A DNA stretch of 64,000 bases from Bacteroidota bacterium (GCA_024280295.1 JAJRQK010000025.1:22523-86522), one strand, 5' to 3'. Counted from the first letter of the stretch, positions 31,319-64,000 are shown. The notes: generated from the sequence alone by a model not told the origin. Numbers and translations: made by a program.

Positions 31319-31319
31319 A

Positions 31320-36541: not shown

Positions 36542-36550
36542 ACTTCCGCT

Positions 36551-37600: not shown

Positions 37601-37609
37601 TTGAAAGCG

Positions 37610-41197: not shown

Positions 41198-41203
41198 GAA
41201 ACA

Positions 41204-42175: not shown

Positions 42176-42177
42176 TC

Positions 42178-44273: not shown

Positions 44274-44278
44274 TTTTA

Positions 44279-47064: not shown

Positions 47065-47123
47065 AGAAGAGTTCAAATGTTTCAGGTTTAAAGATACGAC
47101 TTCCTATAGAACTAAATCAAGTT

Positions 47124-48051: not shown

Positions 48052-48582
48052 TTAAAAATCAAAGTTAATTATACAGCCAATTAGTGGCGTTTCTGAAATT
48101 TGAATTTCTTTATTTCCCTTCCATTCCTGAATCGCTAAATCTACATAATTTATGGTTGGTTCATATTTATGTTTTCCAAGTTTGATGTAATAATCATCCA
48201 TTTTTCCAGAATAGATGCACTTTTCACCATCATAGAGCATGATTTGTGGGGTAACTGTCGCTCCGTGTTTCTTGGCAATGTTCAAATTAGTATCGCAAAT
48301 CACCTCAAAAACAATGTCAAATTCGCTCAATGTTTCATCCAGCTTAGTTTGATCCAATTGCGGATCAGATACTATACCAATAACCTTAAGACTTGATGGA
48401 TATCGCTCCGAAATCCGTTGCATCTTAGGGAGGTTATTTCTTGATGCAGGGCAATCAGAAATAAAGAAAAAATAGCATGTCAACTCACCTGAATTTTTCT
48501 GAACCTTTGCGATCGTTTCATTCTTCGAGTCAGAACATCCGAATGTGAGTGCAAAAAGCGATAAAAGTAGTATGATTTTCAT
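48052..48582 (-). CDS. Thioredoxin-fold lipoprotein with a monothiol C-P-A-S motif
   Basis: 176 aa with lipobox LTFGCS. It resembles TlpA/AhpC-type proteins (CYFFFISDCPASRNNLP ... VTPQIMLYD). Its start overlaps the upstream stop by 1 nt. Confidence 0.55.
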   Translation of the reverse strand: MKIILLLSLFALTFGCSDSKNETIAKVQKNSGELTCYFFFISDCPASRNNLPKMQRISERYPSSLKVIGIVSDPQLDQTKLDETLSEFDIVFEVICDTNLNIAKKHGATVTPQIMLYDGEKCIYSGKMDDYYIKLGKHKYEPTINYVDLAIQEWKGNKEIQISETPLIGCIINFDF

Positions 48583-51089: not shown

Positions 51090-51135
51090 GTCAAAACGTA
51101 ATCCTTTATGTATCTTGGTTGAAATTTATAAGTTC

Positions 51136-52410
51136 ATGGCATTTTGGCGAAAAAAGAAAGAAATTACAGTAAATAACAACGGTCAATTTAAGGATGACGG
51201 TGTTTTTTGTGCAATGCCTTGGGTCCATTTACATGTCACGCAAAACGGGAATATTACTCCATGCTGTCAGGCTCCATGGGGAGATGAAGCAAAACTAGGA
51301 GATATCAATACATCAACGATTCAAGAAATTTGGAAGGGAAAACCATTTGAAGATTTCAGAAAACAAATGCTCAAGGGAAAACCTGCTCCAGCATGCACGA
51401 GATGTTACGAAAAAGAAGAGTTGGGATGGATAAGTCTTCGCGAAATTACCAACGACAAATATGAGAATGAGATCAATGAATTGATTTTAAAAGAATTTCA
51501 TTCTTCCAGTTATGAGACACCCGTCTATTTTGATATTCGTTTTTCGAATGTCTGCAACTTAAAATGCCGCATCTGTAATTTTTCGTCCAGTTCGAGTTGG
51601 TACAATGATGATCTCGCTTTGGGGAATATCAAACCAGAATCGCCAGCTCTTACGACGTCAATTATCGACGAAGAAAAATTCTTTAATGACTTCAAGGAGC
51701 AAATTGGATCAATCAAGGAAATTTATTTTGCTGGTGGCGAGCCTTTGATGATGGATCAACATTATCGGATTTTGGAATTTTTAATCGAAACAGGAAATAC
51801 GAAGTGCAAATTGTTCTACAACACTAACCTATCACGTTTGACCTTCAAACAATTTAACGTTCTAGAACTTTGGAAGCAATTTGATAGCGTTAATCTTGCA
51901 GTGAGTCTTGATGGTATTGGTGAGCGACTAGAGTACCAACGAAAAAATGCCAAATGGGAACAAATGGCATCCAACTTCGAAGCGATTAAGCAGGATGCAC
52001 CCAATGTCGATTTAATGATTAGTCCTACCATTAGCGTTTTCAATATTCTATCGATTACTGAAATGCACAAAACGCTTTTTGAAAAAGGCTACGTTAGAGT
52101 TGAAGATGTGGTTCCAACCTTGCTCGTTTACCCGATGGAATTTAACATAAGGAGTTTAACGAAGGAATTAAAGGGTATTGCTGAAGGACGAATTCTTGAT
52201 CATCTGATTTGGCTAGAAAGTAAAATGGTCGAAGATCGGAAGAAAATGGACTATGTTTTGCGCCAATACCGCAATATTATTGCGTACTTGAATAATGATG
52301 GTGATGAAAAGGCGCGATTAAATTTCCCGCAGAAAATTGCTCAATTGGATGCGTTGCGAGATGAAGATTTCATCGGAGTTTTTCCAGAGTTGAAATCCAT
52401 GATTCACTAG
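51136..52410 (+). CDS. Radical SAM enzyme with an N-terminal Cys-rich (twitch/SPASM-like) domain
   Basis: The N-terminus FCAMPWVHLHVTQNGNITPCC...ACTRC is followed by the CX3CX2C motif in DIRFSNVCNLKCRIC and by YFAGGEPLM. I prefer the ATG at 51136, because the track's 51001 start overlaps the divergent gene. Confidence 0.75.
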   Translation: MAFWRKKKEITVNNNGQFKDDGVFCAMPWVHLHVTQNGNITPCCQAPWGDEAKLGDINTSTIQEIWKGKPFEDFRKQMLKGKPAPACTRCYEKEELGWISLREITNDKYENEINELILKEFHSSSYETPVYFDIRFSNVCNLKCRICNFSSSSSWYNDDLALGNIKPESPALTTSIIDEEKFFNDFKEQIGSIKEIYFAGGEPLMMDQHYRILEFLIETGNTKCKLFYNTNLSRLTFKQFNVLELWKQFDSVNLAVSLDGIGERLEYQRKNAKWEQMASNFEAIKQDAPNVDLMISPTISVFNILSITEMHKTLFEKGYVRVEDVVPTLLVYPMEFNIRSLTKELKGIAEGRILDHLIWLESKMVEDRKKMDYVLRQYRNIIAYLNNDGDEKARLNFPQKIAQLDALRDEDFIGVFPELKSMIH

Positions 52411-53778
52411 CTAGTCCGGGAGCGGGGTTACAAATGACTTAAACAAGTACAAGGCGTGTTCACGATCTATTTGCGGCAAAGACTGTACAACGGTTTTATA
52501 GTCCATTTCAATGATTCGCTGAGTAGCAGTTTCGTGCAAATTGTTCTCGGATGCCACACTCACGATATAATTCAACTTCGCCTCAATGTCTTCAATAGTA
52601 GCTTGTTGCTCTTTTGGGACGATATCAGAATTTTCGTTTATGTATAATTTCAAACCAGCGAAGTACGTTTCCAAATCAACAATTTTTCCTGTTTGATTAA
52701 TTAGTTTCTCTCGTTCCAAAGCTTCTTTTTGCCACAATTCAAAATGACTAACAACTTGGAGGAAACTTAGTTTATTTTCCTTTTGAATAGTAGTGTTAGA
52801 TTGAAGATTTGATTTTGACAGAAATGCAACAATTTTAGAAATTTCGGTAGATGAAAGCGAATTAATGGAACACGATTTTGGATGAAAAACGGTATTGAAA
52901 AAGATGTTACAATCAAGTTCATTGGCAAATTTCACAACATCAGGAAGTTCTTTCCAATTTTGAATCATCGGACAGTATGAAATATGAAAATGGGTTCCTT
53001 TTTCTCTGCAATATTCTCTAAAGAAATGGATGTTCGACAGCACTTTTTTCCACTCGCCATTTTTGCGAATAATTCGATAGTTTTCTTCGATAATTGAATC
53101 AATTGAAACGGCAATATCAAAGTTCATCGAATTGATTATATGCTTAATTCTATTTGTTAAGATAGTACCGTTAGTTTGAATCGAAATTCGAATTTTTGGA
53201 TTGATCGCGACCATCCGCTCCCAAATATTGAGGTAAATAGGTACTAGAAATGGTTCCCCTCCAAGGAAATGTGAATTCTCGAGATAGGGAATAAATTCTT
53301 CCAACTGATCAACGAAATCACTGTCATAAGCTGATTTTATTGGAGGTAGTTTTTCTCTGTTTTTTCGAATGGATGAAGAAAATTCTCCGCGGCACATAAG
53401 GCATTCAAGATTACATTCATTGGACAGCTCAAAATCCATTTTAGAAGGGAAACCTGTTCGAAGAACGGGAAGAGAATCAAAGTTTTTAGCTGGAAGTGCT
53501 TTGAAATTTTCGGCAACAATAAGTTCCTCACAACCCATACATCCAAGAGAGAAATCATTTTGCGCTAGTCGCTGAGTGATTTCCTTTCTTTTGGCACTAT
53601 TCCATATTTCCCGAATAGTAAGATCAGGATATTTTCCAACAACATGAATTTTATTAAAGCAACACACGGATGTGTTCCCTCGAAATCCAAAGTACAAACT
53701 CTTGATTGGAGCCCAGCAGACCATAGTTCGAGCTTCAGGAACGCGCTTTTCGTTATATTTTATTAGTTCATCTCCCAT
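52411..53778 (-). CDS. Radical SAM enzyme with an N-terminal Cys-rich domain (divergent paralog)
   Basis: 455 aa with VCWAPIKSLYFGFRGNTSVCC...LGCMGC, then ELSNECNLECLMCRG (CX3CX2C) and HFLGGEPFL. Confidence 0.75.
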   Translation of the reverse strand: MGDELIKYNEKRVPEARTMVCWAPIKSLYFGFRGNTSVCCFNKIHVVGKYPDLTIREIWNSAKRKEITQRLAQNDFSLGCMGCEELIVAENFKALPAKNFDSLPVLRTGFPSKMDFELSNECNLECLMCRGEFSSSIRKNREKLPPIKSAYDSDFVDQLEEFIPYLENSHFLGGEPFLVPIYLNIWERMVAINPKIRISIQTNGTILTNRIKHIINSMNFDIAVSIDSIIEENYRIIRKNGEWKKVLSNIHFFREYCREKGTHFHISYCPMIQNWKELPDVVKFANELDCNIFFNTVFHPKSCSINSLSSTEISKIVAFLSKSNLQSNTTIQKENKLSFLQVVSHFELWQKEALEREKLINQTGKIVDLETYFAGLKLYINENSDIVPKEQQATIEDIEAKLNYIVSVASENNLHETATQRIIEMDYKTVVQSLPQIDREHALYLFKSFVTPLPD

Positions 53779-53779
53779 T

Positions 53780-55165
53780 TCAAGTATTCTCTCCTATTGA
53801 TTTGGCGAAATCCCACAACGGGCTCAATTCTGGTAATACTGTCCTCGTCGATTCTGTTCGTAAGTGATCTAATTTATCCGTAAAGGCTATAAATTCTGGA
53901 ATTAAGTGCTGGTCAATTTTACTGTCCATGTATGTTATGCAATTCCTAAACTCGTTCAGTTGCATGTCAATTTTTGGATGCCCAGTGGTATTATTCATCC
54001 CAAGGTTATCGAGTAAGCCTTCAAATTGCTCGAGTTCAGCTTTAGTTGGTGCTTGAGGTGGATGATCTTTCGCGTACTCAATCACCCAAGTGATGTGTTG
54101 TTCGAGTTTTTCGCGAATGGTTTCTCGTTCGCCTTCTGGAAAAATTCGAATGCTTAAATAATTCGGACTCCTCAAAGTATGCGGCATGAACTCATCAATA
54201 TTAATTAGTCCAGAAAGCACCCATTCTTTGTGGAAAGCACCGATATTGTTAATGTTCATCACATTGATGGTCGGTGTTACTAAAAAATGAACATGTGGAC
54301 AGACTTCGAGCATTCGCTTTCTTTCCGAAACAGTAATGTCCCATGATTGTCCGCTACGTTGGAGTTCTCCTCGTTTACCTGTATCGTCGAGACTCGCATG
54401 GACATTTACATTTTTAAAATGTGTCCATAACTCAAAAATGTCTCTTCCTTTGTAGATTGTTTGAGAAAAATTGGTCGCGTACCTGAGCTTTATGTCGGTT
54501 TTTCCATGCTCAAGAAGAAGGTCAAGTATTGCCCAATGTTCTTCCATCAACAAGGGTTCTCCTCCAGCAAAATAGATCTCTTCGAGATCATCGAACACAA
54601 AGAGCAATTGCTCCAGTAATTCATCAAAATTCTTTGGACCATGTTGAATTTTTGTTTCGTGGGAAAGTGACCCCATTTCTTTTGCGTCTTTGTACCATTG
54701 TGAACTTGAATGATGTCCACATATTCGACATTTGAAATTACATAAGTTTGAAATACGAATGTCCCAAAAGATAGGCTTGGCCTTTTCTGAGAATCCATTT
54801 CGTTTGGTGTCGAGTGCCCAGTCCAATTTGTCTGCATATAGCGCATTGGTCATTTTCCGGGTGCTTTTCAAACCATTTCGTTCACTTTCGTAACACAATT
54901 TACAGCGTTCATCATGTTGATCTTTTAATAAGGTCTTTCGAAATTGCCTCATTTCGTTGCCGTTCCATATCTCCTTGATTGATTGCTTGTTCACATCTCC
55001 TAATGCACCTTTTTTATCCCAAGGAGTCAAGCAACAAGGAACAACCGAGCCATATTGAGAAACAAAAAGATGCACCCATGGTTTCATGCAAAAAGCTTGG
55101 CTTTCAGCAACTGATTCAGCATCAGTTATCTTTCGATTGGAAAATAAGCTGAACGGTTTTGACAT
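53780..55165 (-). CDS. Radical SAM enzyme with an N-terminal Cys-rich domain (close paralog of 51136-52410)
   Basis: 461 aa with FCMKPWVHLFVSQYGSVVPCC...RCKLC, then DIRISNLCNFKCRICGH and YFAGGEPLLM. Confidence 0.75.
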   Translation of the reverse strand: MSKPFSLFSNRKITDAESVAESQAFCMKPWVHLFVSQYGSVVPCCLTPWDKKGALGDVNKQSIKEIWNGNEMRQFRKTLLKDQHDERCKLCYESERNGLKSTRKMTNALYADKLDWALDTKRNGFSEKAKPIFWDIRISNLCNFKCRICGHHSSSQWYKDAKEMGSLSHETKIQHGPKNFDELLEQLLFVFDDLEEIYFAGGEPLLMEEHWAILDLLLEHGKTDIKLRYATNFSQTIYKGRDIFELWTHFKNVNVHASLDDTGKRGELQRSGQSWDITVSERKRMLEVCPHVHFLVTPTINVMNINNIGAFHKEWVLSGLINIDEFMPHTLRSPNYLSIRIFPEGERETIREKLEQHITWVIEYAKDHPPQAPTKAELEQFEGLLDNLGMNNTTGHPKIDMQLNEFRNCITYMDSKIDQHLIPEFIAFTDKLDHLRTESTRTVLPELSPLWDFAKSIGENT

Positions 55166-55307: not shown

Positions 55308-56882
55308 GTGTTCTATTCTTTGCTTTTGTTTATCTTAATGCTAATGATTTGGCTGTCACGTCGCTATTATGCACAAAAGCATCTTGGAGTTCAATACACG
55401 TTTACTTGGAAATCAGGATATTACTTTGTGATAGGGCTGATGTTAATCTTATCGTTGCCGAAATTTTCAGTTCTATTTATTGTTTTATTTCCACTTTTTT
55501 TATTGACAAGGCACATTCGTGTAATTCGTACGATTAAAGCATCGACATACAATGTAAACATAGCATCAGAATATAAACAGCAATTAAAGACATATCTCGC
55601 GTTGAGATCGAAACGAATGATGTTTTTCCAAAACAATGGACATGTGCTCTTCATTCTTCTCGTTGTTACTGAATTTGGACTTACCCTTGCCAGTTTCGTT
55701 CCTGGTGTGATTTCATACGATGATCATTTTTCAGTTGTTGATGAACTTTTGGTATTTGAGGGGTATAGTGCGGATGAACGAGGAATCATGCATCTTGATA
55801 ATAAGGCAAGAAACTACGCAAGAAAGTATATCAAAGAGAATAACCTAGGGAATAATTTGCTTTTTCAAGCAAAATTAAATTTTGAACACAAACACTATAC
55901 CCCTTATCGCGTCGGTAGAGATTTTCTAGAAATAGCTCAAGGGGAAGTTCAAACTAATTTCCACTTTTTCCTAAAAAAATTGAAAGCCGAAATTAGCCTA
56001 TCTCTCGGTGAAAAAGCGATACTAAATTATATGAGTTCGCCAATTAATTCGGATGGTTTTAGAAGTATTGAGTTTGAATACATACTCTCGAATAAACGGA
56101 AAGTCTTTTTACTGGGAGATTCATTTACTTGGGGATCTGGAGTAGAAAATTTAAGTTCAAGTTTTGCCGATGAATTGACTTCTCAAGGTTTTCTCGTGTA
56201 TAATTCAGGAATTGTAGGAACAAATCTTCCTCAGTATGTTGAAATAGTTCGCAAATACATTTTAACAGTAAAACCAGATGTAGTGGTGCTCAATTTATTT
56301 TTGGGAAATGATATTGTTGAACACAGGATAGACTTAAAACCATTTCATCCACAGTATTACAACACAAACGCTGGTACTCTAATGTGTGCACCTCATGGTA
56401 TGTATGCTAATAGCGCCGAAGATGCCTATGCTAGAATAATTGATCAAACGACGATTCCAAAAAAAATGTCTTGGCTGAATTATCTATCTAGTCAAACAAG
56501 AATTTCGACCTTGCTTTGGAGTGCCTTTGCAGAGATGGGAATTATTGGAAATGTGGCATCCAAAGAATCGGTGGATTATTGGGACTTTGTGAATCAGTCA
56601 AAAGTTGGTTATAAAGTGAATGCTGAGGATCTTGAAGACATTGAACGCATTTGCAAAAAGAATCAGTGTGAATTGATAGTTTCCATCATTTCTGAACGAG
56701 ATAATTTAGACTTATCTGATCTCATAGTAGATAAAATGGTGGGTAACTTCCCGTATGTAAGAATCGCTAATTTAACAAAGGAAGATTATGCACCTGATCA
56801 TCACCTTAATGAATCAGGTAATCGCAAGTATGCTAGATTTCTTCAGTTGCAAATCGAGAAAGAAGCCCTCGACAATCGTTAG
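55308..56882 (+). CDS. Polytopic membrane protein with a C-terminal SGNH/GDSL domain
   Basis: 524 aa with a GTG start and 3-4 N-terminal TM segments. SGNH blocks: VFLLGDSFTWGSG, YNSGIVGTN, LFLGNDIV, PDHHLNESGNRKYA. Confidence 0.65.
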   Translation: MFYSLLLFILMLMIWLSRRYYAQKHLGVQYTFTWKSGYYFVIGLMLILSLPKFSVLFIVLFPLFLLTRHIRVIRTIKASTYNVNIASEYKQQLKTYLALRSKRMMFFQNNGHVLFILLVVTEFGLTLASFVPGVISYDDHFSVVDELLVFEGYSADERGIMHLDNKARNYARKYIKENNLGNNLLFQAKLNFEHKHYTPYRVGRDFLEIAQGEVQTNFHFFLKKLKAEISLSLGEKAILNYMSSPINSDGFRSIEFEYILSNKRKVFLLGDSFTWGSGVENLSSSFADELTSQGFLVYNSGIVGTNLPQYVEIVRKYILTVKPDVVVLNLFLGNDIVEHRIDLKPFHPQYYNTNAGTLMCAPHGMYANSAEDAYARIIDQTTIPKKMSWLNYLSSQTRISTLLWSAFAEMGIIGNVASKESVDYWDFVNQSKVGYKVNAEDLEDIERICKKNQCELIVSIISERDNLDLSDLIVDKMVGNFPYVRIANLTKEDYAPDHHLNESGNRKYARFLQLQIEKEALDNR

Positions 56883-57055: not shown

Positions 57056-60000
57056 TTGAAACAATTCTTACTGCTAATGATTTCCTTTTTTCAATTCTTT
57101 ACTCAAAAATTGCGACTCAGTAATCCGTGGCGGTACAAAGTTCCACTACTTATTTCGTTTTGTTATTTCTTACTCCTCACAGGTAATGTCCATCCCTATA
57201 TTGCCTCAATGTCATTCTTTGCAGCAATCGGAACAACGATTGGTTTTATGGGCTTCGGATATTTGACAAATGATCTTGCCGACCGAAAAAAAGATGCGCT
57301 TGCTGGAAAAGGAAATGGAACTGCGAAATTATCCTCAGCATCAATTTTACTTTTAGTCCTCACCTTTTTGGCTATTGCAATTTTGCCTTGGATTTATCTC
57401 CCAATGGATCGAGTTTCGGTTGTTTGCATTATTACAGAACTGGTCTTATTCGTGTTGTATGCATTCCCTCCTTTTCGCCTTAAGGAAAGAGGTTTTTTAG
57501 GAGTGATTACGGATTCTCTCTATGCACATGTCGTCCCTGGGTTTCTTGCTTCTTGGACATTTTATTTAGTTGGTAACGAACACTATAAAAACTTCTTTTA
57601 TTTCGCAATTGCACTTTCAGTTTGGCAATTATTCTCAGGAATTCGAAACATAATTTCTCATCACTATAAGGATTACGAAAACGATCAAACGAGTGGAACC
57701 AGAACCTTTGCTACACAGATTGGAAAAGAGAAAGTGTATAAGCTAATCACTCATTTTTTCATTCCGTTGGAGATTATCTCTGCGTTGGGGTTTCTTGTCG
57801 TTATTCAATTTGAAATTGATTTCCTCTTCATTCCAGTGATCATTTTCCCCTTTATTGCTTGGTCGAAGTATCGTAATGGGAGATCGGAAACATCAGCCAA
57901 ACATTTTACTAATACCTTTTTAGATCGATTTTATATTCACTGGTTTCCTTACATCGTTCTTTTCGCTCTAGTATTCGGAATCTACGATTTTTGGTGGATT
58001 GTACTTTTTCACGTATTGATCTTTCATCCATTAACTGGGAGAATTTCACGCCATATTTTTGCGAAGAAAGCGGATGTAACTTCTGAAGAAGTCATCCCAA
58101 ACAAGATTGCGATTCTATCAACAAATCGAAATCAATATTCGGAGACGTTTATTCAATCACACATTCGTTTACTTTCAAATGCAATCATTTATTCGGATGG
58201 ATACTTTCCAACATCAGTCTCTACGAACCGAGGGGAAACGTGGAATAAATTAGAATTTTCAGATAGTCCTAAATCAGATTTAGTCCAGTCATGGAAAGAC
58301 AACAATGTGAAAGTTGTTTTAGCTGAATACGGACCTGCTGGTGTTGAACTAATAAAGGCATGTCAGAAGGCGAATATTCCTTTGGTTGTTCATTTTCATG
58401 GCTTTGATGCGTATCGGGATGATGTTCTGAAATCTTACAAAGAGCGCTACAAAGAGTTGTTTCAAATTGCTTCTAAGATTATCATTGTTTCCAATGATAT
58501 GAAGTCTCAGTTACTCGCATTAGGTTGCCCAAAAGAGAAATTGGAACAAATAACCTACGGCGTTGATGCGGAGCTATTCTCTCCTCCATATCAGAATGAT
58601 AAACGAAATGGTTTCATTGCCTGTGGACGCTTTGTCCCAAAAAAATCTCCGTTAACAACAATTCGAGCTTTCGCAAAAATTGTTGAGTTACATCCGAATG
58701 CAAAATTGACGTTTATTGGTGATGGCGAGTTGCTTGAAGAAGCGATTTCACTGAGTAAAGAGCTTAAAATTGAAGGGAACATTGACTTCAAAGGAGTTTT
58801 GAGTCCTGCAGAGGTTGCCGATGAGTTTAAAAAGCACGCAATTTTTGTTCAGCATTCAGTCCGCACAACTCAAAACGATTCAGAAGGAACACCACTTTCG
58901 TTATTAGAAGCTGCCGCATCGGGATTGGCAATTGTGGCTACAAATCACGGTGGAATTTCTGATGTCATTGTTGATGGTGAATCTGGTTTCCTTGTTGAGG
59001 AAGGGGATGTTGTCGAAATGACTAAGCGCATGCTTCAAGTTTTTGAGGATGATAAACTTAAAAAACAACTCGGATCGAAAGCAAGGGAAACGGTTTTGAA
59101 AAATTACCATTTGGTAGGTTATATATCTTCATTGGAGTCGTGTTTAAATCAAGCTGAAACCCCACCAAAGAAAGAAAGTAAATTGACTATTTGGAAGAAT
59201 CGATTAATTGTCTTTTTAGTCTTGTTTTTAGTTGCGGAAATCGCTCTCAGAATGGTTGGCTATAAAGCGGGAGTCATCGAAGATTTCTATTTTCATCGTG
59301 GAGAAGTGCAATACGATTCCTTGCTTTACGCCGATGAAGTTGGTATTACGCACATAGTTGACGGAGTAGAACTGATTGTTGATGGTGAAATAAATTCCGA
59401 AGGATTTTTGAGCTCGGTAGAATTTACCGCTGAATCAATGGACTCAATTCGAGAATCAGGGAAGAAAATCATTATGCTAATCGGTGATTCATATGCGCAG
59501 GGATGTTGTGCTGATAGTTACAATTACTCGTTTGCGAATCTTATTAACCAATCGGATGATTACGAAGTTCTCAATTTTGGAATTCCAGGAGCAGATCCAG
59601 TTCAATACCGTCTAATTGTTGAGAAATATGCACCAATTCTAAAGCCAGATTTGATTCTAGTAACAGTTTATGGGGGAAATGACATCTTGGAATATGATCG
59701 AACTGCGAAGCCATTTATTCCGATTGCTTATCCAATCAAGAATGGTCCTTGGCTCAATTCAGAAGGTCCAATTTATTTAACAAAGCAAGGAACTTACTTC
59801 AAGGATTTCAATGAAGCTAAGGCGCATTACTTCGAATATTTCTCTCTCTGGAGTGATGAATCTTCGTTCTTTGAGAAAACGATTCGTTACAGTGTAATTC
59901 TATCTCGCCCTTATATGAAATGGAAAACAAGTAAGCAATACAATAAAATCAAGTATCAAATGCCTGATAAATTAGATCACATGCCTTACTCAAAGGAAAA

Positions 60001-60265
60001 TCTTATTTCACTGTCGGCTTTTGCCTCAAATCTTAAAATCCCAATTCAATATACATTGATTCCATCTCCGTCTGATGTTATATCCAATCTAAACCTTCGC
60101 AAGAAATACAATTTTGTTTTTGGAGAAATAAGCTATGGAGTATCTGATAAATTGGTGATTGAAGATTACGATGGAGACGCGGACGCGAATCACTTTAACA
60201 ATCAAGGACATCAGAAATATGCAATATATCTGACAACTTTAATTGATGCAAAACTTTCTGAATGA
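57056..60265 (+). CDS. Triple-domain fusion: UbiA-family prenyltransferase (polytopic) - GT4 glycosyltransferase - TM helix - SGNH domain
   Basis: 1069 aa. The UbiA Asp-rich motifs are NDLADRKKD (57269-57295) and YKDYENDQTSG. The GT4 E-x7-E region is EGTPLSLLEAAASGLAIVATNHGGISDVIVDGESGFLVEE. The TM helix is LIVFLVLFLVAEIALRMVGY. SGNH blocks are MLIGDSYAQG, NFGIPGAD, VYGGNDIL and DANHFNNQGHQKYA. The TTG start is uncertain; ATG at 57077 is an alternative. Confidence 0.75.
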   Translation: MKQFLLLMISFFQFFTQKLRLSNPWRYKVPLLISFCYFLLLTGNVHPYIASMSFFAAIGTTIGFMGFGYLTNDLADRKKDALAGKGNGTAKLSSASILLLVLTFLAIAILPWIYLPMDRVSVVCIITELVLFVLYAFPPFRLKERGFLGVITDSLYAHVVPGFLASWTFYLVGNEHYKNFFYFAIALSVWQLFSGIRNIISHHYKDYENDQTSGTRTFATQIGKEKVYKLITHFFIPLEIISALGFLVVIQFEIDFLFIPVIIFPFIAWSKYRNGRSETSAKHFTNTFLDRFYIHWFPYIVLFALVFGIYDFWWIVLFHVLIFHPLTGRISRHIFAKKADVTSEEVIPNKIAILSTNRNQYSETFIQSHIRLLSNAIIYSDGYFPTSVSTNRGETWNKLEFSDSPKSDLVQSWKDNNVKVVLAEYGPAGVELIKACQKANIPLVVHFHGFDAYRDDVLKSYKERYKELFQIASKIIIVSNDMKSQLLALGCPKEKLEQITYGVDAELFSPPYQNDKRNGFIACGRFVPKKSPLTTIRAFAKIVELHPNAKLTFIGDGELLEEAISLSKELKIEGNIDFKGVLSPAEVADEFKKHAIFVQHSVRTTQNDSEGTPLSLLEAAASGLAIVATNHGGISDVIVDGESGFLVEEGDVVEMTKRMLQVFEDDKLKKQLGSKARETVLKNYHLVGYISSLESCLNQAETPPKKESKLTIWKNRLIVFLVLFLVAEIALRMVGYKAGVIEDFYFHRGEVQYDSLLYADEVGITHIVDGVELIVDGEINSEGFLSSVEFTAESMDSIRESGKKIIMLIGDSYAQGCCADSYNYSFANLINQSDDYEVLNFGIPGADPVQYRLIVEKYAPILKPDLILVTVYGGNDILEYDRTAKPFIPIAYPIKNGPWLNSEGPIYLTKQGTYFKDFNEAKAHYFEYFSLWSDESSFFEKTIRYSVILSRPYMKWKTSKQYNKIKYQMPDKLDHMPYSKENLISLSAFASNLKIPIQYTLIPSPSDVISNLNLRKKYNFVFGEISYGVSDKLVIEDYDGDADANHFNNQGHQKYAIYLTTLIDAKLSE

Positions 60266-60315: not shown

Positions 60316-60465
60316 ATGGACTTTTTAAAAGATATTTGGGGCTTCATCAAGGAACGCAAAAAATACTGGCTTGGACCGGTTATTATTATGTTGCTATTAA
60401 TTGGAGTGCTATTGGTAATTGGCGGAGGAAGTAGTGTTGCTCCATTTATTTATTCACTCTTTTAA
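60316..60465 (+). CDS. Small membrane protein, DUF5989/SxtK-like (49 aa; below the ORF-track length cutoff)
   Basis: ATG at 60316 gives MDFLKDIWGFIKERKKYWLGPVIIMLLLIGVLLVIGGGSSVAPFIYSLF*. Its TAA overlaps the next gene's ATG by 1 nt. It matches my memory of the short proteins that accompany SxtJ and carbamoyltransferase genes. Confidence 0.65.
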   Translation: MDFLKDIWGFIKERKKYWLGPVIIMLLLIGVLLVIGGGSSVAPFIYSLF

Positions 60466-60839
60466 TGTCGTCTCAATCCAAGTCGATTAACCCCTCGAAA
60501 ACGGTACTTGTCATTACTGTCGGATTTCTTGTATTATTCTTCTTTTCAAAACAAAATTTATTATTGTATATCGCATTGAGTGTTGGTATTCTTGGTGCAC
60601 TTTCAAGTTACTTGGCAGACAAAATTGATTGGCTTTGGACCAAAATCGGTTGGATTCTCAGTTTTATCGTTCCAAATATCATCATGACAATTATTTTCTA
60701 TCTAGTTCTAGTACCAACTGCTTTTTTATCTCGCATTTTCGGCAAGTCTGATCCAATGGATTTAAAAAATTCACAGCCATCCTTATTTAAGAAGAAAGAT
60801 ACAATCTTTAGCAAAGAATCATTCGAGAAACCTTGGTGA
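60465..60839 (+). CDS. SxtJ-like small membrane protein
   Basis: 124 aa with three hydrophobic segments. It sits between the DUF5989-like ORF and the carbamoyltransferase gene. Confidence 0.55.
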   Translation: MSSQSKSINPSKTVLVITVGFLVLFFFSKQNLLLYIALSVGILGALSSYLADKIDWLWTKIGWILSFIVPNIIMTIIFYLVLVPTAFLSRIFGKSDPMDLKNSQPSLFKKKDTIFSKESFEKPW

Positions 60840-60840
60840 T

Positions 60841-62706
60841 ATGGCAGCAATTATAGGAATATCAGCCTTTTATCATGATTCAGCAGCAGCGATTGTTGTA
60901 GACGGTAAACTGATTGCAGCAGCTCAAGAAGAACGATTCACAAGAATCAAACACACGGAAGTATTTCCAGGAAATGCCGTTAAGTTCTGTTTGGAAGAAG
61001 CAGGATTAACAATTGATGAATTGGATGCTGTCGTTTTTTACGATAAGCCACTGCTGAAATTTGAACGATTGCTTCAAACATATTACTCATTCGCGCCTAA
61101 AGGATTGATTTCCTTTCTTAAAGCGATGCCTGTTTGGTTGAATGAAAAATTATTTCTTCGAAAGAAAATAAAGGAAGGTCTTGCGGAAGTTGGACCGTAT
61201 GACAAGAGCAAACTGAAAATGCTTTTTACAGAGCATCATTTATCTCACGCCGCAAGTGCATTTTATCCGTCAAATTTTGAAGATGCTGCTATCCTCACAA
61301 TTGATGGAGTGGGCGAGTGGTGTACAGCTTCTATTGGTATCGGAAAAGGAAACTCAATTGAGTTGGTGAAAGAAATGAATTTCCCTCATTCTGTTGGATT
61401 ATTGTATAGCGCTTTCACTTATTATTTGGGATTCAAAGTCAACTCTGGGGAATACAAACTAATGGGACTTGCTCCTTATGGTCATGTCGATTCTGATGAA
61501 ACCAAGAAATTCGTTGAGTTGATAAAATCAAAGTTGATTGACATTAAAGAAGATGGTTCGATCTGGCTGAATCAAGAATATTTCAACTACGCTACTGGAC
61601 TTCGAATGGTGAAGGATGCTAAATGGAAAGCTCTTTTTGGAGTTGTTCGAAAAGAGGATGAAAGCGACCTGACCCAAGCACATTGTAATTTAGCATTGGC
61701 AATTCAACTTGTTACCGAAGAGATCGTCTTGAAAATGGCGCAAGAAGCAAAAAACTTAACGGGTTTGAATAATCTCTGCATGGCTGGCGGTGTTGCACTT
61801 AATTGCGTGGCGAATGGGAAATTAGAGGCGGCGAATATATTTGATGAAATTTACATTCAACCTGCATCTGGCGATTGTGGTGGAGCAGTTGGAGCTGCAA
61901 TGACAATTAGTGCGATGTATTTTGACGAACCTCGAATTCTCAATATCGAGGAAGATGCAATGAATGGAACGTATTTAGGCCCCTATTTTTCTTCCAAGGA
62001 GATTGAGTTGATGTCGCGGAAACGAAAAGCGGTCTTTGATCAGTATGATGATTTTAGTGAGCTAAATGAAATCATTGCAACGAAACTTTCAGAAGGAAAT
62101 GTGATCGGTTGGTTCCAAGATCGAATGGAATTTGGTCCTCGTGCTCTAGGAAATCGAAGCATCATTGCAGACCCAACAAATCGATATATGCAGTCTAAGG
62201 TGAATCTCAAAATAAAATACCGAGAAGGATTTAGACCATTTGCTCCTTCAGTTTTAGAGGAGGATACTTCTGAATATTTTGATCTCAAATCGAAATCGCC
62301 TTACATGTTGCTTGTTGCGCCTGTTACTGAAAAGTATCGAATTGATTTACCTGTGAATTATCACAGTTTACCAATGATGGATCAGCTTAAAACAGAGAGA
62401 AGCAAGTTACAAGCGATCACTCATGTTGATTTTTCTGCTCGAATTCAATCTGTCAGTAAAAAAATGAATCCTCGTTATTGGGAATTAATCAATGCGTTTA
62501 AACAAAAATCAGGTATTGGAATGGTCGTGAATACTAGTTTTAATGTCAGAGGAGAACCAATTGTATGCACTCCTGATGATGCCTTTCGCTGTTTTATGAG
62601 TACGGAAATGGACTACCTTGTAATTGAAAATTATGTTTTCACTAAAACGGCTCAAATTGATTTCGAAAACAAGGGTAATTGGAGAATTGCTTTCGAGAAA
62701 GACTAA
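60841..62706 (+). CDS. NodU/CmcH-family O-carbamoyltransferase
   Basis: 621 aa. The N-terminus IIGISAFYHDSAAAIVVDGKLIAAAQEERFTRIKH, together with EHHLSHAASAF, MAGGVALNC and NTSFNVRGEPIV, is typical of the family. Confidence 0.85.
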   Translation: MAAIIGISAFYHDSAAAIVVDGKLIAAAQEERFTRIKHTEVFPGNAVKFCLEEAGLTIDELDAVVFYDKPLLKFERLLQTYYSFAPKGLISFLKAMPVWLNEKLFLRKKIKEGLAEVGPYDKSKLKMLFTEHHLSHAASAFYPSNFEDAAILTIDGVGEWCTASIGIGKGNSIELVKEMNFPHSVGLLYSAFTYYLGFKVNSGEYKLMGLAPYGHVDSDETKKFVELIKSKLIDIKEDGSIWLNQEYFNYATGLRMVKDAKWKALFGVVRKEDESDLTQAHCNLALAIQLVTEEIVLKMAQEAKNLTGLNNLCMAGGVALNCVANGKLEAANIFDEIYIQPASGDCGGAVGAAMTISAMYFDEPRILNIEEDAMNGTYLGPYFSSKEIELMSRKRKAVFDQYDDFSELNEIIATKLSEGNVIGWFQDRMEFGPRALGNRSIIADPTNRYMQSKVNLKIKYREGFRPFAPSVLEEDTSEYFDLKSKSPYMLLVAPVTEKYRIDLPVNYHSLPMMDQLKTERSKLQAITHVDFSARIQSVSKKMNPRYWELINAFKQKSGIGMVVNTSFNVRGEPIVCTPDDAFRCFMSTEMDYLVIENYVFTKTAQIDFENKGNWRIAFEKD

Positions 62707-62752: not shown

Positions 62753-63730
62753 ATGAAACGAATTCTTGTGCTTGGTGCTGGAGGCTTTATCGGAAGCCAT
62801 TTAGTAACCCGACTGAAAAATAATGGACATCACGTGGTTGGTGTCGATTTGAAGTATCCAGAATTCTCCGAAACACAGGCTGATGAATTTGTTATCGGTG
62901 ACTTACGAGATCCTAATGTTTGCGAAGCAGTAATAAAGGACGAGATTGACGAGATCTACCAACTCGCTGCCGATATGGGAGGTGCTGGATACTTGTTTAC
63001 AGGTGAAAATGATTTTAATGTCATGCACAATTCAGCGTTAATTAATCTAAATGTTTCTCATTTTGCAATTCAGTCGAAAGTTGAAAGGGTGTTTTTCTCA
63101 TCTTCGGCGTGTATTTATCCTCAATTCAATCAAACTGATCCAAACAATCCTAATTGTGAGGAGAGTTCAGCGTATCCTGCCGATCCAGATAGTGAATATG
63201 GTTGGGAGAAGATTTTTTCTGAGAGATTGTATCATGCAGCATCAAGAAATTACGATTTGAATGTACGAATTGCACGTTTTCATAATATTTACGGTCCAGA
63301 AGGAACTTGGAATTCTGGAAAGGAAAAAGCTCCAGCTGCATTATGTCGAAAAGTCGCAATGGCAAAACAAGAAGATACCATCGAAATTTGGGGGGATGGA
63401 ACTCAAACACGATCCTTTCTCTACATTGATGATTGCATTGATGGAATTTTGGCCTTGATGGGATCAGATTGTACAGAAGTACTAAATATTGGTTCAGAGG
63501 AAATGGTAACCATTAACCGCCTCGCGGAAATGATTGCTTCTCATGCAGATAAATCAATTTTATTAAATCACATTGATGGACCAATTGGCGTGATGGGGCG
63601 TAATTCAGAGAATTCCTTGGTAATGAAGTCAATTGGATGGAGCCCAAAAGTAAGTCTTTCAGAAGGACTTTTGAAAACATATCAATGGATCGATTCTGAA
63701 GTTGTTAAATTGAAAGTCTCACACAATTAA
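62753..63730 (+). CDS. NAD-dependent sugar-nucleotide epimerase, GDP-mannose 3,5-epimerase-like
   Basis: 325 aa with Rossmann motif LGAGGFIGSHL. SSACIYP ... YGWEK ... RFHNIYGPEGTW.SGKEKAPAALCRK ... WGDGTQTRSF is collinear with plant GDP-mannose 3,5-epimerase as I remember it. Confidence 0.7.
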   Translation: MKRILVLGAGGFIGSHLVTRLKNNGHHVVGVDLKYPEFSETQADEFVIGDLRDPNVCEAVIKDEIDEIYQLAADMGGAGYLFTGENDFNVMHNSALINLNVSHFAIQSKVERVFFSSSACIYPQFNQTDPNNPNCEESSAYPADPDSEYGWEKIFSERLYHAASRNYDLNVRIARFHNIYGPEGTWNSGKEKAPAALCRKVAMAKQEDTIEIWGDGTQTRSFLYIDDCIDGILALMGSDCTEVLNIGSEEMVTINRLAEMIASHADKSILLNHIDGPIGVMGRNSENSLVMKSIGWSPKVSLSEGLLKTYQWIDSEVVKLKVSHN

Positions 63731-64000
63731 TGTCCGACAAAACACCATACATTTCTTTCGTTGTTACTTCCAGAAATGACAATCATGGGGGAGACCTGCG
63801 CAAGCGAATGATGATTTTCTACAAAGGATTGATTCATCAATGCAACAAGTTCAAGCTTCCTTGCGAGTTAATTATGGTTGATTGGAATTCGCCCGATCAG
63901 AATGAATTGTTGGACAAAGTGCTACCTCCAGTTTCTGCATCTGATTATTTGTCCGTTCGATACGTGATCGTTCCTCCACAAATTCACAATGAACTTCGTT
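63730..64000 (+). CDS. Partial CDS (N-terminal 90 codons), possibly a GT-A-like glycosyltransferase; continues past the window end
   Basis: The ATG at 63730 overlaps the upstream TAA by 1 nt. The translation is MSDKTPYISFVVTSRNDNHGGDLRKRMMIFYKGLI...ELIMVDWNSPDQ and the frame stays open to 64000. The function is a guess from context. Confidence 0.45.
   Translation, partial: MSDKTPYISFVVTSRNDNHGGDLRKRMMIFYKGLIHQCNKFKLPCELIMVDWNSPDQNELLDKVLPPVSASDYLSVRYVIVPPQIHNELR

What the first reader, a model, noticed from the sequence alone, without database searches (positions are those of the whole stretch)
57056..60265. UbiA prenyltransferase - GT4 - SGNH triple fusion spanning the membrane
Seen: one 1069-aa ORF joins four parts.
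- A polytopic UbiA-type domain with both Asp-rich motifs, NDLADRKKD and YKDYENDQTSG.
- A GT-B/GT4 glycosyltransferase with the E-x7-E motif.
- A single TM helix.
- An SGNH domain with all four blocks.

The predicted topology puts the GT4 domain in the cytoplasm and the SGNH domain in the periplasm.

Established: UbiA-family members include decaprenyl-phosphate phosphoribosyltransferase, which builds a lipid-linked sugar donor for mycobacterial arabinan.

Seen: I found no WecA/WbaP-type initiating phosphoglycosyltransferase among the genes in this window.

Inference: this fusion could create or prime an unconventional lipid-linked acceptor, extend it, and later acylate or deacylate the product outside the membrane.
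Basis: partly seen in the sequence, partly recalled or inferred. Interest (0 to 1): 0.7.

Follow-up and report, generated by a model that had tools for sequence, protein, structure and literature searches.

The report
Fused UbiA–GT4–SGNH glycan-pathway enzyme
One 1069-residue membrane protein joins three enzymes (a UbiA-type prenyltransferase, a GT4 sugar transferase and an outward-facing SGNH esterase/acyltransferase) that are neighbouring genes in many other Bacteroidota, pointing to a widespread, uncharacterised surface-glycan pathway in which a prenyltransferase-like enzyme and a sugar transferase work as a pair.

Summary
ORF 57056..60265 (+) is uninterrupted. It encodes a 10-TM UbiA module (both Asp-rich motifs), a GT4 glycosyltransferase (E610-x7-E618), one TM helix and an SGNH domain (Ser812, Gly842, Asn875, His1046). 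Positive-inside counts put the UbiA active-site loops and GT4 in the cytoplasm and SGNH outside.

It is not an artefact. The fusion is intact in 14 reference genomes and about 46 protein clusters (57–100% identity, Crocinitomicaceae and relatives).

Elsewhere the three parts are adjacent genes in a conserved block: [SGNH]–UbiA–GT4–epimerase–unknown–UGDH-like–large GT2(–GT-C/TPR). Wzm/Wzt, many PhyH dioxygenases, a methyltransferase and twitch radical-SAM genes accompany it. UbiA–GT4 fusions arose several times.

The DPPR-synthase analogy is not supported. The module lies closest to AfUbiA, DGGGP synthase and chlorophyll synthase, and farthest from Rv3806c among UbiA folds. It keeps the second DxxxD motif, whose loop in Rv3806c has no Asp. 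No WecA/WbaP gene is in the window, which I regard as normal for Wzm/Wzt clusters, and three related clusters carry one.

Best reading (unproven): a prenyl-diphosphate-type transferase makes a lipid-linked intermediate, GT4 glycosylates it, and SGNH modifies the product after export. Substrates are unknown. New variant of a known kind; moderately interesting.

The parts
57056..60265 (+). Whole fused gene (1069 codons from TTG 57056; probable true start ATG 57077, M8)
57077..58060 (+). UbiA-superfamily module, residues about 8-335. Ten TM helices, N-in/C-in. Motif 1 is N72-D73-x2-D76-x3-D80; motif 2 is D206-x3-D210. It also has R141/K143 and conserved polar residues in the membrane (D153, H202, E239, Y293, H319).
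58061..58099 (+). Low-confidence linker, residues 336-348, basic, cytoplasmic
58100..59155 (+). GT4 (GT-B fold) glycosyltransferase, residues about 349-700; E610-x7-E618 invariant
59192..59260 (+). Single TM helix (TM11), residues about 713-735, carrying the chain out of the cytoplasm
59261..60262 (+). Extracytoplasmic SGNH/GDSL domain, residues about 736-1069; Ser812, Gly842/845, Asn875, His1046
55308..56882 (+). Upstream paralogous membrane-anchored SGNH gene (524 aa), in the position held by the stand-alone SGNH gene in unfused clusters
60316..62706 (+). DUF5989 (60316-60465), SxtJ-like (60465-60839) and carbamoyltransferase (60841-62706): a recurrent accessory trio of the block
62753..63730 (+). 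NAD-dependent epimerase/dehydratase (extended SDR); it follows the GT4 gene in almost all related loci
63709..64000 (+). Start of the conserved 'u348' gene (no family match), cut by the end of the window. In homologous loci a UGDH-like gene, a ~640-aa GT2 and often a GT-C/TPR gene follow.
35726..47076 (.). Co-conserved part of the system: Wzm-like ABC-2 permease (35726-36541), Wzt-like ATPase (42178-43389), methyltransferase (41204-42175) and about 10 PhyH-type 2OG dioxygenase genes
51001..55165 (.). Three N-terminal-twitch radical SAM genes, recurrent next to the UbiA block

Best explanation
The gene fuses three enzymes of one conserved, still uncharacterised glycoconjugate pathway. That pathway depends on a Wzm/Wzt ABC transporter and is widespread in Bacteroidota.

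Well supported by the analyses here:
- The N-terminal module is a catalytically intact member of a distinct UbiA subfamily. It has 10 TM helices, and its two-Asp-motif (two-Mg2+-type) diphosphate site faces the cytoplasm.
- The GT4 domain sits on the same side.
- One further TM helix puts an SGNH domain with an intact Ser/Gly/Asn/His set outside the membrane.
- UbiA and GT4 form a functional pair.

Inferred:
1. The UbiA module binds an allylic (poly)prenyl diphosphate. It transfers the prenyl chain to a polar, oxygen-nucleophile acceptor such as a polyol phosphate or sugar phosphate, as DGGGP synthase and chlorophyll synthase do. This makes a membrane-embedded lipid-linked intermediate.
2. The tethered retaining GT4 glycosylates that intermediate, or supplies its acceptor, using a nucleotide sugar. 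The co-conserved epimerase and UGDH-like genes probably tailor that sugar.
3. The other glycosyltransferases, the PhyH dioxygenases, the methyltransferase and the carbamoyltransferase extend and decorate the product, and Wzm/Wzt exports it.
4. The SGNH domain then adds or removes an ester-linked group at the outer face.
For: Fusion of neighbours:
- Stand-alone UbiA genes of the same subfamily lie in the order SGNH-UbiA-GT4-epimerase-u348-UGDH-like-GT2.
- L059 and L072 have separate UbiA|GT4|SGNH genes in the fusion's order.

Coupling:
- In 10 contexts chosen through UbiA alone, a GT4 is fused or the next gene in 6, and lies within 8 kb in 9.
- 12 of 150 subfamily representatives are UbiA-GT4 fusions.
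- A rough NJ tree needs at least 7 fused/unfused changes, and one protein has the reverse order, GT4-UbiA.

Catalytic competence:
- D73, D80 and D210 are kept in 153/153 sequences; N72, D76, Y135, R141, K143 and D153 in 152/153; D206 in 150/153. This holds in every fusion class.

Kind of UbiA enzyme:
- The profile hits only AfUbiA, chlorophyll synthase and DGGGP synthase.
- Foldseek order is AfUbiA (3e-6, TM 0.62-0.66), DGGGPS, ApUbiA, UBIAD1, then Rv3806c.
- The second DxxxD motif is kept, unlike in Rv3806c.
- One related cluster has two polyprenyl-diphosphate synthase genes, one fused to an FAD-binding domain, beside UbiA and GT4.
- In a Chloroflexi cluster two P450 genes flank UbiA. In my experience P450s usually act on lipids or terpenoids.

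Topology. SGNH residues. Glycan and ABC-transporter setting.
Against: - No substrate is identified. Nothing here shows prenyl transfer, the acceptor, or the order of the UbiA and GT4 steps.
- A dedicated prenyl-diphosphate synthase was seen in only one context. None was found in 87 fetched loci or the window.
- Similarity to every characterised UbiA enzyme is remote: E about 1e-3 to 1e-4 by profile, 18-19% identity by structure.
- Some residues that bind phosphoribose in Rv3806c have positional counterparts here (Y69~Y70 and Y156~Y157; K28 by numbering only).
- An SDR epimerase, and in 18 of 42 loci a GT-C/TPR gene, follow the pair. That resembles the pentofuranose three-component systems.
- Three related clusters also hold a Bac_transf initiating enzyme, so a UbiA-made primer is not obviously needed.
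- The SGNH Pfam score is just under the cut-off, and no acyl-donor partner is conserved with it.
Confidence: 0.45

Rival explanations
1. DPPR-synthase-like donor synthesis. The UbiA module transfers a phospho-sugar from a sugar-1-diphosphate such as PRPP to polyprenyl phosphate. The SDR epimerase converts the lipid-linked sugar. After flipping, the GT-C/TPR enzyme uses it outside the membrane. GT4 adds a second sugar or acts on the main chain.
For: - The block contains an extended-SDR epimerase right after GT4, and a PMT_2-type GT-C with TPR repeats in 18 of 42 loci.
- Kelly et al. 2024 (PMC11127046) describe UbiA-type polyprenyl phosphoribose synthase plus SDR epimerase plus flippase plus GT-C systems in O-antigen clusters. 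These include a UbiA enzyme fused to a soluble domain.
- hhalign pairs Y69 and Y156 with the phosphoribose-site residues Y70 and Y157 of Rv3806c.
- Many conserved polar residues lie inside the membrane helices.
Against: - Rv3806c is the most distant UbiA fold: Foldseek E 0.066 and 12% identity, no profile hit at E<=10, hhalign probability 14%.
- No DPPR-synthase model appeared among the 25 listed (of 28 matched) NCBIfam families for 58 members.
- The invariant D206xxxD210 corresponds to an Asp-free loop in Rv3806c, which uses one Mg2+ and a Lys/Arg cluster.
- No HAD or PAP2 phosphatase, and no GtrA- or MATE-type flippase, appears in any annotated context.
- The GT-C gene is missing from many loci that have more than 10 kb of downstream sequence.
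- The hypothesis gives no reason for the tight pairing with GT4.
Confidence: 0.2
2. Prenyl decoration or cap. The UbiA module O-prenylates a sugar of the short lipid-linked glycan itself, as a decoration or as the chain-ending cap read by the C-terminal domain of Wzt. PhyH dioxygenases, P450s and the methyltransferase then oxidise and methylate it.
For: - The closest GT4 relatives are fused to other modifying domains, methyltransferase or sulfotransferase.
- The UbiA module itself is fused to PhyH plus coiled coil plus TPR (P0117) and to a methyltransferase (P0260). As I recall it, chain-terminating enzymes such as E. coli WbdD have a similar build.
- Wzt_C domains are present in related clusters and weakly in the window.
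- Oxidative enzymes cluster tightly around UbiA.
Against: - The UbiA active site is embedded at the membrane surface, which suits a lipid-proximal acceptor better than the far end of a polymer.
- I know of no described prenylated bacterial surface glycan, and my literature searches found none.
- PhyH proteins here weakly match 'sporadic carbohydrate cluster' oxygenases, so they may act on sugars rather than on a prenyl chain.
Confidence: 0.15
3. Mainly a scaffold. The UbiA-like module anchors GT4 and other cytoplasmic enzymes at the membrane and binds the undecaprenyl-diphosphate end of the growing chain, without transferring anything.
For: The module is fused in different lineages to GT4, PhyH, a methyltransferase and a second membrane domain. 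That is what one would expect of an organising platform. The diphosphate-binding site could hold Und-PP-glycan.
Against: The full catalytic set of both Asp motifs, R141/K143 and Y135, together with D153, is kept in 150-153 of 153 sequences across every architecture. Most members are stand-alone proteins of about 343 aa with nothing to anchor.
Confidence: 0.08
4. Artefact: the three domains are really separate genes joined by an assembly or sequencing error.
For: Two other genes in the window are disrupted: a frameshift in the WelO5-like gene and an in-frame stop in a PhyH gene. The sequence therefore carries some errors or pseudogenes.
Against: The same continuous reading frame occurs in 14 independent reference genomes and about 46 protein clusters at 57-100% identity, from different studies. 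The linkers are conserved in length.
Confidence: 0.01

Closest known systems
AfUbiA (A. fulgidus UbiA homologue, PDB 4TQ3-4TQ6), digeranylgeranylglyceryl phosphate synthase (6M31/7BPU) and chlorophyll synthase (9SAU)
   Same: They are the best sequence-profile and fold matches. They share the NDxxDxxxD and DxxxD motifs, the Arg/Lys loop after TM4 and a cytoplasm-facing site. From general knowledge, DGGGPS and chlorophyll synthase transfer a prenyl group to an oxygen nucleophile, which is the chemistry proposed here.
   Different: Identity is only 16-19% and profile E is about 1e-3 to 1e-4. This subfamily has an extra TM9/TM10 hairpin, so its C-terminus is inside. It has 'AGKxN' in place of the usual 'RP' segment after motif 1, which is my own reading of the alignments. 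Many polar residues inside the membrane are conserved. It lies in Wzm/Wzt glycan clusters with an obligate GT4 partner. No substrate is known.
Polyprenyl-phosphate phosphoribosyltransferases: M. tuberculosis Rv3806c (8J8J) and C. youngae O1 ORF15 (HAD phosphatase-UbiA fusion), Kelly et al. 2024
   Same: These are UbiA-fold enzymes in cell-surface glycan pathways. One is fused to a soluble domain. They are associated with an SDR epimerase and a GT-C enzyme.
   Different: They are the most distant of the UbiA folds. The corresponding TM6-TM7 loop of Rv3806c has no Asp, and that enzyme uses one Mg2+ plus a K/R cluster. They need a phosphatase, and none is seen here. They have no GT4 partner.
EboC / Ubi-297 (ebo cluster UbiA-like prenyltransferase of Flavobacteria and cyanobacteria)
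   Same: A UbiA-family enzyme of Bacteroidota linked to transport of a product to the periplasm. It has been suggested to prenylate a polar compound.
   Different: It belongs to a different subfamily: 1 of 58 members touched the EboC model. Its gene cluster is different, with no GT4, Wzm/Wzt or PhyH. It farnesylates aromatic quinoline acids in vitro.
Moenomycin-type phosphoglycolipid assembly (MoeO5 prenyl-phosphoglycerate synthase, MoeE5 epimerase, MoeGT1, MoeM5 carbamoyltransferase, MoeK5 radical SAM); recalled from memory, not tested
   Same: The logic is the same as the best explanation: an ether-linked prenyl primer is glycosylated with an epimerase-derived uronic sugar, then carbamoylated and further tailored.
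   Different: As I recall, MoeO5 is a soluble TIM-barrel enzyme, not a UbiA-family one. No sequence relationship was tested. The organisms and the export route differ.
O-antigen O-acetyltransferases with periplasmic SGNH domains (OafA/OafB; 6SE1) and AlgX/AlgJ-type SGNH proteins
   Same: They have a membrane-anchored, extracytoplasmic SGNH domain acting on an exported glycan. There is a weak single-sequence hit to 6SE1 (E 0.48).
   Different: No conserved AT3 or MBOAT acyl-donor partner accompanies it in the block. The family profile finds only generic GDSL proteins. The direction of the reaction, adding or removing an ester, is unknown.

Membership tests
UbiA superfamily (PF01040) | Significant match to the family model | tested here: met
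   51.3 bits against a cut-off of 34.2, residues 33-284
UbiA superfamily (PF01040) | First Asp-rich motif NDxxDxxxD after TM2 | tested here: met
   N72, D73, D76 and D80 are kept in 152-153 of 153 subfamily sequences
UbiA superfamily (PF01040) | Second Asp-rich motif DxxxD after TM6 | tested here: met
   D206 in 150/153 and D210 in 153/153. It aligns with the DYEFD motif of AfUbiA.
UbiA superfamily (PF01040) | All-helical 9-TM fold with a cytoplasm-facing cap | tested here: met
   AF2 model with pLDDT 93.6 and pTM 0.91. Foldseek to AfUbiA gives TM 0.62-0.66, E 3e-6. There is one additional TM hairpin.
UbiA superfamily (PF01040) | Mg2+-dependent transfer from a diphosphate-activated donor | not testable with these tools
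   Needs an enzyme assay
Decaprenyl/polyprenyl-phosphate phosphoribosyltransferase (DPPR synthase, Rv3806c type) | Closest relatives among UbiA enzymes are DPPR synthases | tested here: not met
   There is no PDB profile hit to 8J8J at E<=10. Foldseek gives E 0.066 and 12% identity, the last of the UbiA folds. hhalign probability is 14%. No DPPR-synthase model appears among the 25 listed of 28 matched NCBIfam families.
Decaprenyl/polyprenyl-phosphate phosphoribosyltransferase (DPPR synthase, Rv3806c type) | One-Mg2+ site with a Lys/Arg cluster; no Asp motif in the TM6-TM7 loop | tested here: not met
   The window protein has an invariant D206xxxD210. The Rv3806c loop reads 'AGKRYAELHLAERTGAAIRKSLESYT'.
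Decaprenyl/polyprenyl-phosphate phosphoribosyltransferase (DPPR synthase, Rv3806c type) | Phosphoribose-binding residues (K28, Y70, Q135, Y157 of Rv3806c) | tested here: inconclusive
   Y69 and Y156 pair with Y70 and Y157 in a low-confidence alignment. K28 matches by numbering only. No counterpart of Q135 was found.
Decaprenyl/polyprenyl-phosphate phosphoribosyltransferase (DPPR synthase, Rv3806c type) | Companion phosphatase and GT-C consumer in the cluster | tested here: inconclusive
   A GT-C/TPR gene is present in 18 of 42 loci. No HAD or PAP2 phosphatase appears in any annotated context.
Glycosyltransferase family 4 (GT-B, retaining) | Match to Glycos_transf_1 and Glyco_transf_4 models | tested here: met
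   122 bits and 44.9 bits, both above cut-off
Glycosyltransferase family 4 (GT-B, retaining) | E-x7-E motif | tested here: met
   E610 and E618 are invariant in 34 sequences
Glycosyltransferase family 4 (GT-B, retaining) | Two-Rossmann GT-B fold | tested here: met
   Foldseek to BshA, PimB', MshA and HepE gives target TM 0.74-0.81 and E down to 1.8e-17
Glycosyltransferase family 4 (GT-B, retaining) | Donor and acceptor specificity | not testable with these tools
   The best named model is WcaL, at 101 bits against a cut-off of 537, so there is no equivalog
SGNH/GDSL hydrolase superfamily | Significant match to a family model | tested here: inconclusive
   PF13472 scores 28.6-31.8 bits against a cut-off of 32.9. 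The profile against the PDB finds only generic GDSL proteins at E 0.004-0.006.
SGNH/GDSL hydrolase superfamily | Blocks I, II, III and V (Ser, Gly, Asn, His) | tested here: met
   S812, G842, N875 and H1046 are kept in 42/42. The block V Asp is kept in only 16/42.
Initiating phosphoglycosyltransferase (WecA/MraY type or WbaP/Bac_transf type) | Sequence membership of the fusion or of any window gene | tested here: not met
   No PF00953 or PF02397 hit. Jackhmmer found none in the window.

The most novel reading that the evidence does not exclude
This UbiA subfamily, together with its obligate GT4 partner, makes a previously unknown kind of lipid-linked glycoconjugate. A (poly)prenyl chain would be joined by an ether or ester bond, not a phosphodiester, to the reducing-end unit of a glycan exported by Wzm/Wzt. 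That would be a new class of lipid anchor or primer, distinct from undecaprenyl-(di)phosphate carriers. The many PhyH, P450 and radical-SAM enzymes might tailor the isoprenoid, and the outward-facing SGNH domain might process the linkage or an acyl group after export.
Probability: 0.25. Interest if true: 0.85.

Novelty: new variant of a known kind. Interest (0 to 1): 0.58.

Why it matters
Bacterial surface glycans are, as far as is known, started by two enzyme families (WecA/MraY-type and WbaP-type) on undecaprenyl phosphate. A few exceptions are known among ABC-transporter pathways. UbiA enzymes have entered glycan biology only as phosphoribosyl transferases.

This work shows a separate, sizeable UbiA subfamily: at least 211 clusters at 50% identity below E 1e-30. 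It has a canonical prenyl-diphosphate-type site and is wired to a GT4 glycosyltransferase inside a conserved Wzm/Wzt glycan cluster. That cluster occurs across Bacteroidota and in some other phyla.

If the pair makes a prenyl-linked primer or decoration, that would add a new chemistry to glycoconjugate assembly. It would also give a function to hundreds of genes now annotated as 'glycosyltransferase' or '4-hydroxybenzoate polyprenyltransferase'.

The fusion protein is a convenient single-polypeptide target for biochemistry and cryo-EM. The recurrent fusion is ready-made evidence of which enzymes act together.

Tried and rejected
- Single-sequence searches of the PDB with the UbiA part found nothing, and with the SGNH part only a 0.48 hit. 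Profiles were needed.
- The fold search with the full-length model returned only GT4 structures. A second, UbiA-only model was required.
The run with the full-length alignment used GT4 peptide patterns. Loci L004-L082 are therefore biased towards containing a GT4. I corrected for this with 10 contexts chosen through UbiA alone.
- The exact database copy of the window protein (P0001) could not be located on a contig. The sequence beyond 64000 was therefore inferred from 77%-identical loci.
- I searched for IspA-type prenyl-diphosphate synthases in all fetched loci and found none. The one case seen has no DNA available.
- Five literature searches found nothing on this subfamily or cluster. Ubi-297/EboC turned out to be a different subfamily. 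The Xanthomonas LPS UbiA genes sit with FAD oxidoreductases and GtrA, which looks like the pentofuranose system.
- Pfam at a relaxed threshold gave nothing for the second membrane domain of the UbiA-X variants, or for the conserved u348 and 125-aa proteins.
I could not analyse pockets or domain contacts, and the full-length pTM of 0.44 says the relative domain placement is unreliable.
- The first NJ attempt timed out and was redone with a lighter method. That tree is rough and has no support values.

Full report
**1. The observation**

The window has a single uninterrupted ORF at 57056..60265 on the + strand. It is 1069 codons from the first possible start, a TTG. The identical database protein (P0001, 1062 aa) and the family consensus begin at Met8, so the likely start is the ATG at 57077.

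Pfam finds three kinds of domain:
- UbiA at residues 33-284, 51.3 bits, above the cut-off.
- The two GT4 halves at 407-506 and 513-678, 122 bits.
- A GDSL match at 809-884. It scores 28.6 bits on the whole protein and 31.8 on the isolated C-terminal part, against a cut-off of 32.9.

E610-x7-E618 is invariant in 34 homologues. In 42 fused and stand-alone relatives of the SGNH part, Ser812, Gly842, Asn875 and His1046 are invariant and Gly845 is kept in 41. The block V Asp is kept in only 16.

**2. Topology**

I combined the helices of the AlphaFold models with Lys+Arg counts over the family alignment.
- Predicted cytoplasmic segments carry 2.9-5.9 K+R on average: the N-terminus, loops 2-3, 4-5, 6-7 and 8-9, and the stretch after TM10.
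- Predicted periplasmic loops carry 0.06-0.9.

Both Asp-rich loops therefore face the cytoplasm, as in other UbiA enzymes. A short extra hairpin (TM9 292-309, TM10 312-324) brings the chain back inside, so the GT4 domain is cytoplasmic. TM11 (about 713-735) has a basic segment before it and an acidic one after it, so the SGNH domain is outside. It rests on sequence statistics and not on experiment.

**3. Not an artefact, and how common it is**

The same continuous architecture occurs in about 46 protein clusters at 57-100% identity. It also occurs in 14 reference genomes of Crocinitomicaceae, Fluviicola, Salibacteraceae and other Flavobacteriales. The window's own organism is not among the reference genomes; the nearest relative is 77% identical.

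An exhaustive search with the UbiA part alone found 211 clusters (at 50% identity) below E 1e-30 and 1202 below 1e-10. Of the best 150 representatives:
- 119 are stand-alone proteins, median 343 aa.
- 12 are UbiA-GT4 fusions.
- 9 carry another C-terminal extension.
- 1 is the triple fusion.

The triple fusion is therefore a lineage-specific elaboration of a widespread subfamily.

**4. What it is: a fusion of neighbouring genes of a conserved pathway**

Stand-alone members sit in clusters with the order membrane-anchored SGNH, UbiA, GT4, NAD-dependent epimerase, a conserved unknown of about 348 aa, a UDP-glucose/GDP-mannose-dehydrogenase-like gene, and a GT2 of about 640 aa. In 18 of 42 loci a PMT_2-type GT-C with TPR repeats follows.

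Around this block lie:
- Wzm- and Wzt-like ABC transporter genes.
- Four to ten PhyH-type 2OG dioxygenases.
- A methyltransferase.
- N-terminal-twitch radical SAM genes (NF033640, above cut-off).
- Often a DUF5989/SxtJ-like/carbamoyltransferase trio.

The window shows the same set. The conserved unknown begins at 63709 and is cut by the window's end. In L059 and L072 the genes are separate but lie in the fusion's order, UbiA|GT4|SGNH. The system is kept down to 26-29% identity of the UbiA part (L091). It also appears, with variations, in Chloroflexi (L083).

**5. A caveat on the adjacency statistic**

Loci L004-L082 were retrieved with peptide patterns from the GT4 domain. The finding that all 42 UbiA-carrying loci have GT4 fused or nearby is therefore biased.

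In the ten contexts selected through UbiA alone (L002, L003, L083, L084, L085, P0300, L087, P0329, L088, L091), a GT4 is fused or the next gene in six. It lies within 8 kb in nine.

Independent support comes from the fusions themselves. UbiA-GT4 proteins fall into several separate clades at 26-33%, about 40% and 55-100% identity to the window. One protein has the reverse order. A rough neighbour-joining tree needs at least seven fused/unfused changes.

**6. Is the UbiA module an enzyme, and of which kind?**

Across 153 sequences of all architectures:
- D73, D80 and D210 are kept in 153.
- N72, D76, Y135, R141, K143 and D153 are kept in 152.
- D206 is kept in 150.

This rules out a decayed anchor domain.

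A profile of the subfamily finds only AfUbiA (E 2.6e-4), chlorophyll synthase and DGGGP synthase in the PDB. NCBIfam hits are to archaeal 'prenyltransferase' models and ChlG, all far below cut-off.

The UbiA-only model is confident (pLDDT 93.6, pTM 0.91). Foldseek ranks AfUbiA first (E 3e-6, TM 0.62-0.66), then DGGGP synthase, ApUbiA and UBIAD1. Rv3806c is last among UbiA folds, at E 0.066 and 12% identity.

I recovered the deposited Rv3806c sequence (8J8J) and aligned it to the profile. The probability was 14%. The first motif, Y135/K143, Y69 and Y156 have partners. The invariant D206xxxD210 faces an Rv3806c loop without any Asp. Gao et al. 2024 report that Rv3806c binds PRPP with one Mg2+ and a Lys/Arg cluster, whereas canonical UbiA enzymes need a second Mg2+.

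The window's module is therefore of the canonical type that uses prenyl diphosphate, and it does not pass the membership test for DPPR synthases.

Two context clues point the same way. One related cluster has two polyprenyl-diphosphate synthase genes, one fused to an FAD-binding domain, next to UbiA and a double GT4. In Chloroflexi, UbiA is flanked by two P450 genes. Both are single cases. No IspA-type gene occurs in the 87 fetched loci or the window.

**7. The initiating-transferase argument**

No WecA- or WbaP-type gene exists in the window, nor within 10 kb downstream in the closest homologous loci.

To my knowledge this is usual for Wzm/Wzt-type clusters, which commonly rely on a WecA encoded elsewhere. 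Three related clusters (L084, L059, L072) carry a Bac_transf gene beside the UbiA system. The window also encodes a WaaL-type ligase and a Wzz-like protein at 20.7-23.2 kb. The absence therefore neither supports nor excludes a priming role for the fusion.

**8. Most likely mechanism**

*Well supported:*
- A cytoplasm-facing, catalytically intact UbiA site.
- A GT4 tethered on the same face.
- An intact SGNH domain outside.
- Functional coupling of UbiA with GT4.
- Membership of a glycan pathway exported by an ABC transporter.

*Inferred:*
- The UbiA module transfers a (poly)prenyl chain from its diphosphate to an oxygen nucleophile of a polar acceptor, making a membrane-bound intermediate.
- GT4 glycosylates that intermediate, or supplies its acceptor, using a sugar nucleotide. 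The adjacent epimerase and dehydrogenase-like genes probably tailor that sugar.
- Further transferases and tailoring enzymes act, and Wzm/Wzt exports the product.
- The SGNH domain adds or removes an ester-linked group outside.

I give this 0.45.

*Rivals:*
- A DPPR-synthase-like donor pathway feeding the GT-C enzyme: 0.2. The epimerase and GT-C context, and the precedent of Kelly et al. 2024, speak for it. The sequence, fold, motif and missing-phosphatase evidence speak against it.
- Prenylation of the glycan itself as a decoration or cap: 0.15.
- A mainly scaffolding role: 0.08.
- An artefact: 0.01.

**9. Comparison with what is known, and novelty**

The three domains belong to known superfamilies, and fusions of a UbiA enzyme with a soluble domain exist (HAD-UbiA in C. 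youngae). The following points are new as far as the searched literature shows:
- A distinct 10-TM UbiA subfamily with a canonical two-motif site.
- Its constant partnership, and repeated fusion, with a GT4.
- Its fusions with PhyH, methyltransferase and a second membrane domain.
- Its home in a conserved Wzm/Wzt cluster rich in dioxygenases.

Databases label these proteins only 'glycosyltransferase' or '4-hydroxybenzoate polyprenyltransferase'.

I rate it a new variant of a known kind, with interest 0.58. The most novel reading not excluded is a non-phosphodiester, prenyl-linked primer or anchor for an exported glycan. I give it probability about 0.25; it would be of high interest if true.

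Noticed in passing
window 47124-48046 (-): The WelO5-like 2OG enzyme is split over two reading frames, with a frameshift near 47.76-47.86 kb. It is intact (about 305 aa) in L008, L010 and L015. It may be a pseudogene or a sequencing error.
   Followed up: partly
window 37601-38548 (+): A PhyH dioxygenase gene carries an in-frame stop at about 38126-38128. ORFs 37601-38128 and 38150-38548 are in the same frame and align as one protein to an intact homologue.
   Followed up: partly
window 51001-55165: There are three paralogous radical SAM genes of the 'N-terminal twitch domain' family (NF033640; two of the three, at 388 and 375 bits, clear the 170-bit cut-off and the third, 52411-53778, scores 154.5). 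The Cys-rich SPASM/twitch part precedes the radical SAM core. They recur next to the UbiA block in many loci. Their substrate is unknown.
   Followed up: partly
window 36551-47076: About ten PhyH-type 2OG dioxygenase genes lie in 11 kb, one of them a double-domain protein of 634 aa. They weakly resemble the 'sporadic carbohydrate cluster 2OG-Fe(II) oxygenase' family (TIGR04324). This is an unusually dense set of oxygenases for a glycan cluster.
   Followed up: partly
window 48052-49949 (-): A copper type II monooxygenase-like protein (PHM/DBH-type domains) sits next to an AhpC/TSA-like protein. The same pair occurs in L032.
   Followed up: no
window 60316-62706 (+): A DUF5989 (49 aa), SxtJ-like (124 aa) and carbamoyltransferase trio lies directly after the fusion. 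The trio recurs on either side of the block in many loci.
   Followed up: partly
window 26322-34682: An MBOAT plus AlgX-like SGNH pair, a PPTase, a DegT aminotransferase, a FabH-like KAS III, two GT2 genes and a GNAT together look like an acylated-amino-sugar and O-acylation module. The same set occurs in L047.
   Followed up: no
window 20741-23179 (-): A WaaL-type O-antigen ligase (Wzy_C) and a Wzz-like chain-length protein sit at the edge of the cluster. They suggest the product, or a second glycan, is ligated to a lipid or protein acceptor.
   Followed up: no
P0058-P0065 and others; L022, L025, L031, L039: UbiA variants of about 870-900 aa carry a second polytopic membrane domain (8-9 TM) and a soluble tail of about 120 aa, with no Pfam match. 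No SGNH-like ORF was detected in the fetched flanks of these loci, so the extension may replace it.
   Followed up: partly
P0117 (L085 10001-14689); P0260: The same UbiA module is fused to two PhyH domains, a coiled coil and TPR repeats (1562 aa) in P0117. In a high-GC organism (P0260) it is fused to a methyltransferase. The catalytic residues are intact in both.
   Followed up: partly
L083 8763-14166: In a Chloroflexi cluster, UbiA lies between a Wzt-like ATPase and two cytochrome P450 genes, with sulfotransferases, GT87 and GT4 genes nearby. P450s take the place that PhyH genes hold in Bacteroidota.
   Followed up: no
context of P0329 (no DNA held): The order is UbiA, a double GT4, an FAD_binding_3-polyprenyl synthase fusion, and a second polyprenyl synthase. 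This is the only context seen with dedicated prenyl-diphosphate synthases.
   Followed up: partly
L011 (contig CAXPPC010000002.1): A MAG labelled Henriciella pelagia (Alphaproteobacteria) carries a 57%-identical triple fusion and the full Bacteroidota-type block on a 244-kb contig. This is either mis-binning or horizontal transfer.
   Followed up: no
window 50025-51089 (-): A conserved 354-aa protein has no Pfam hit. It matches weakly a Leptospira 'LA_2486 family SGNH/GDSL-type esterase' model. That would make four SGNH-type proteins in the window.
   Followed up: no
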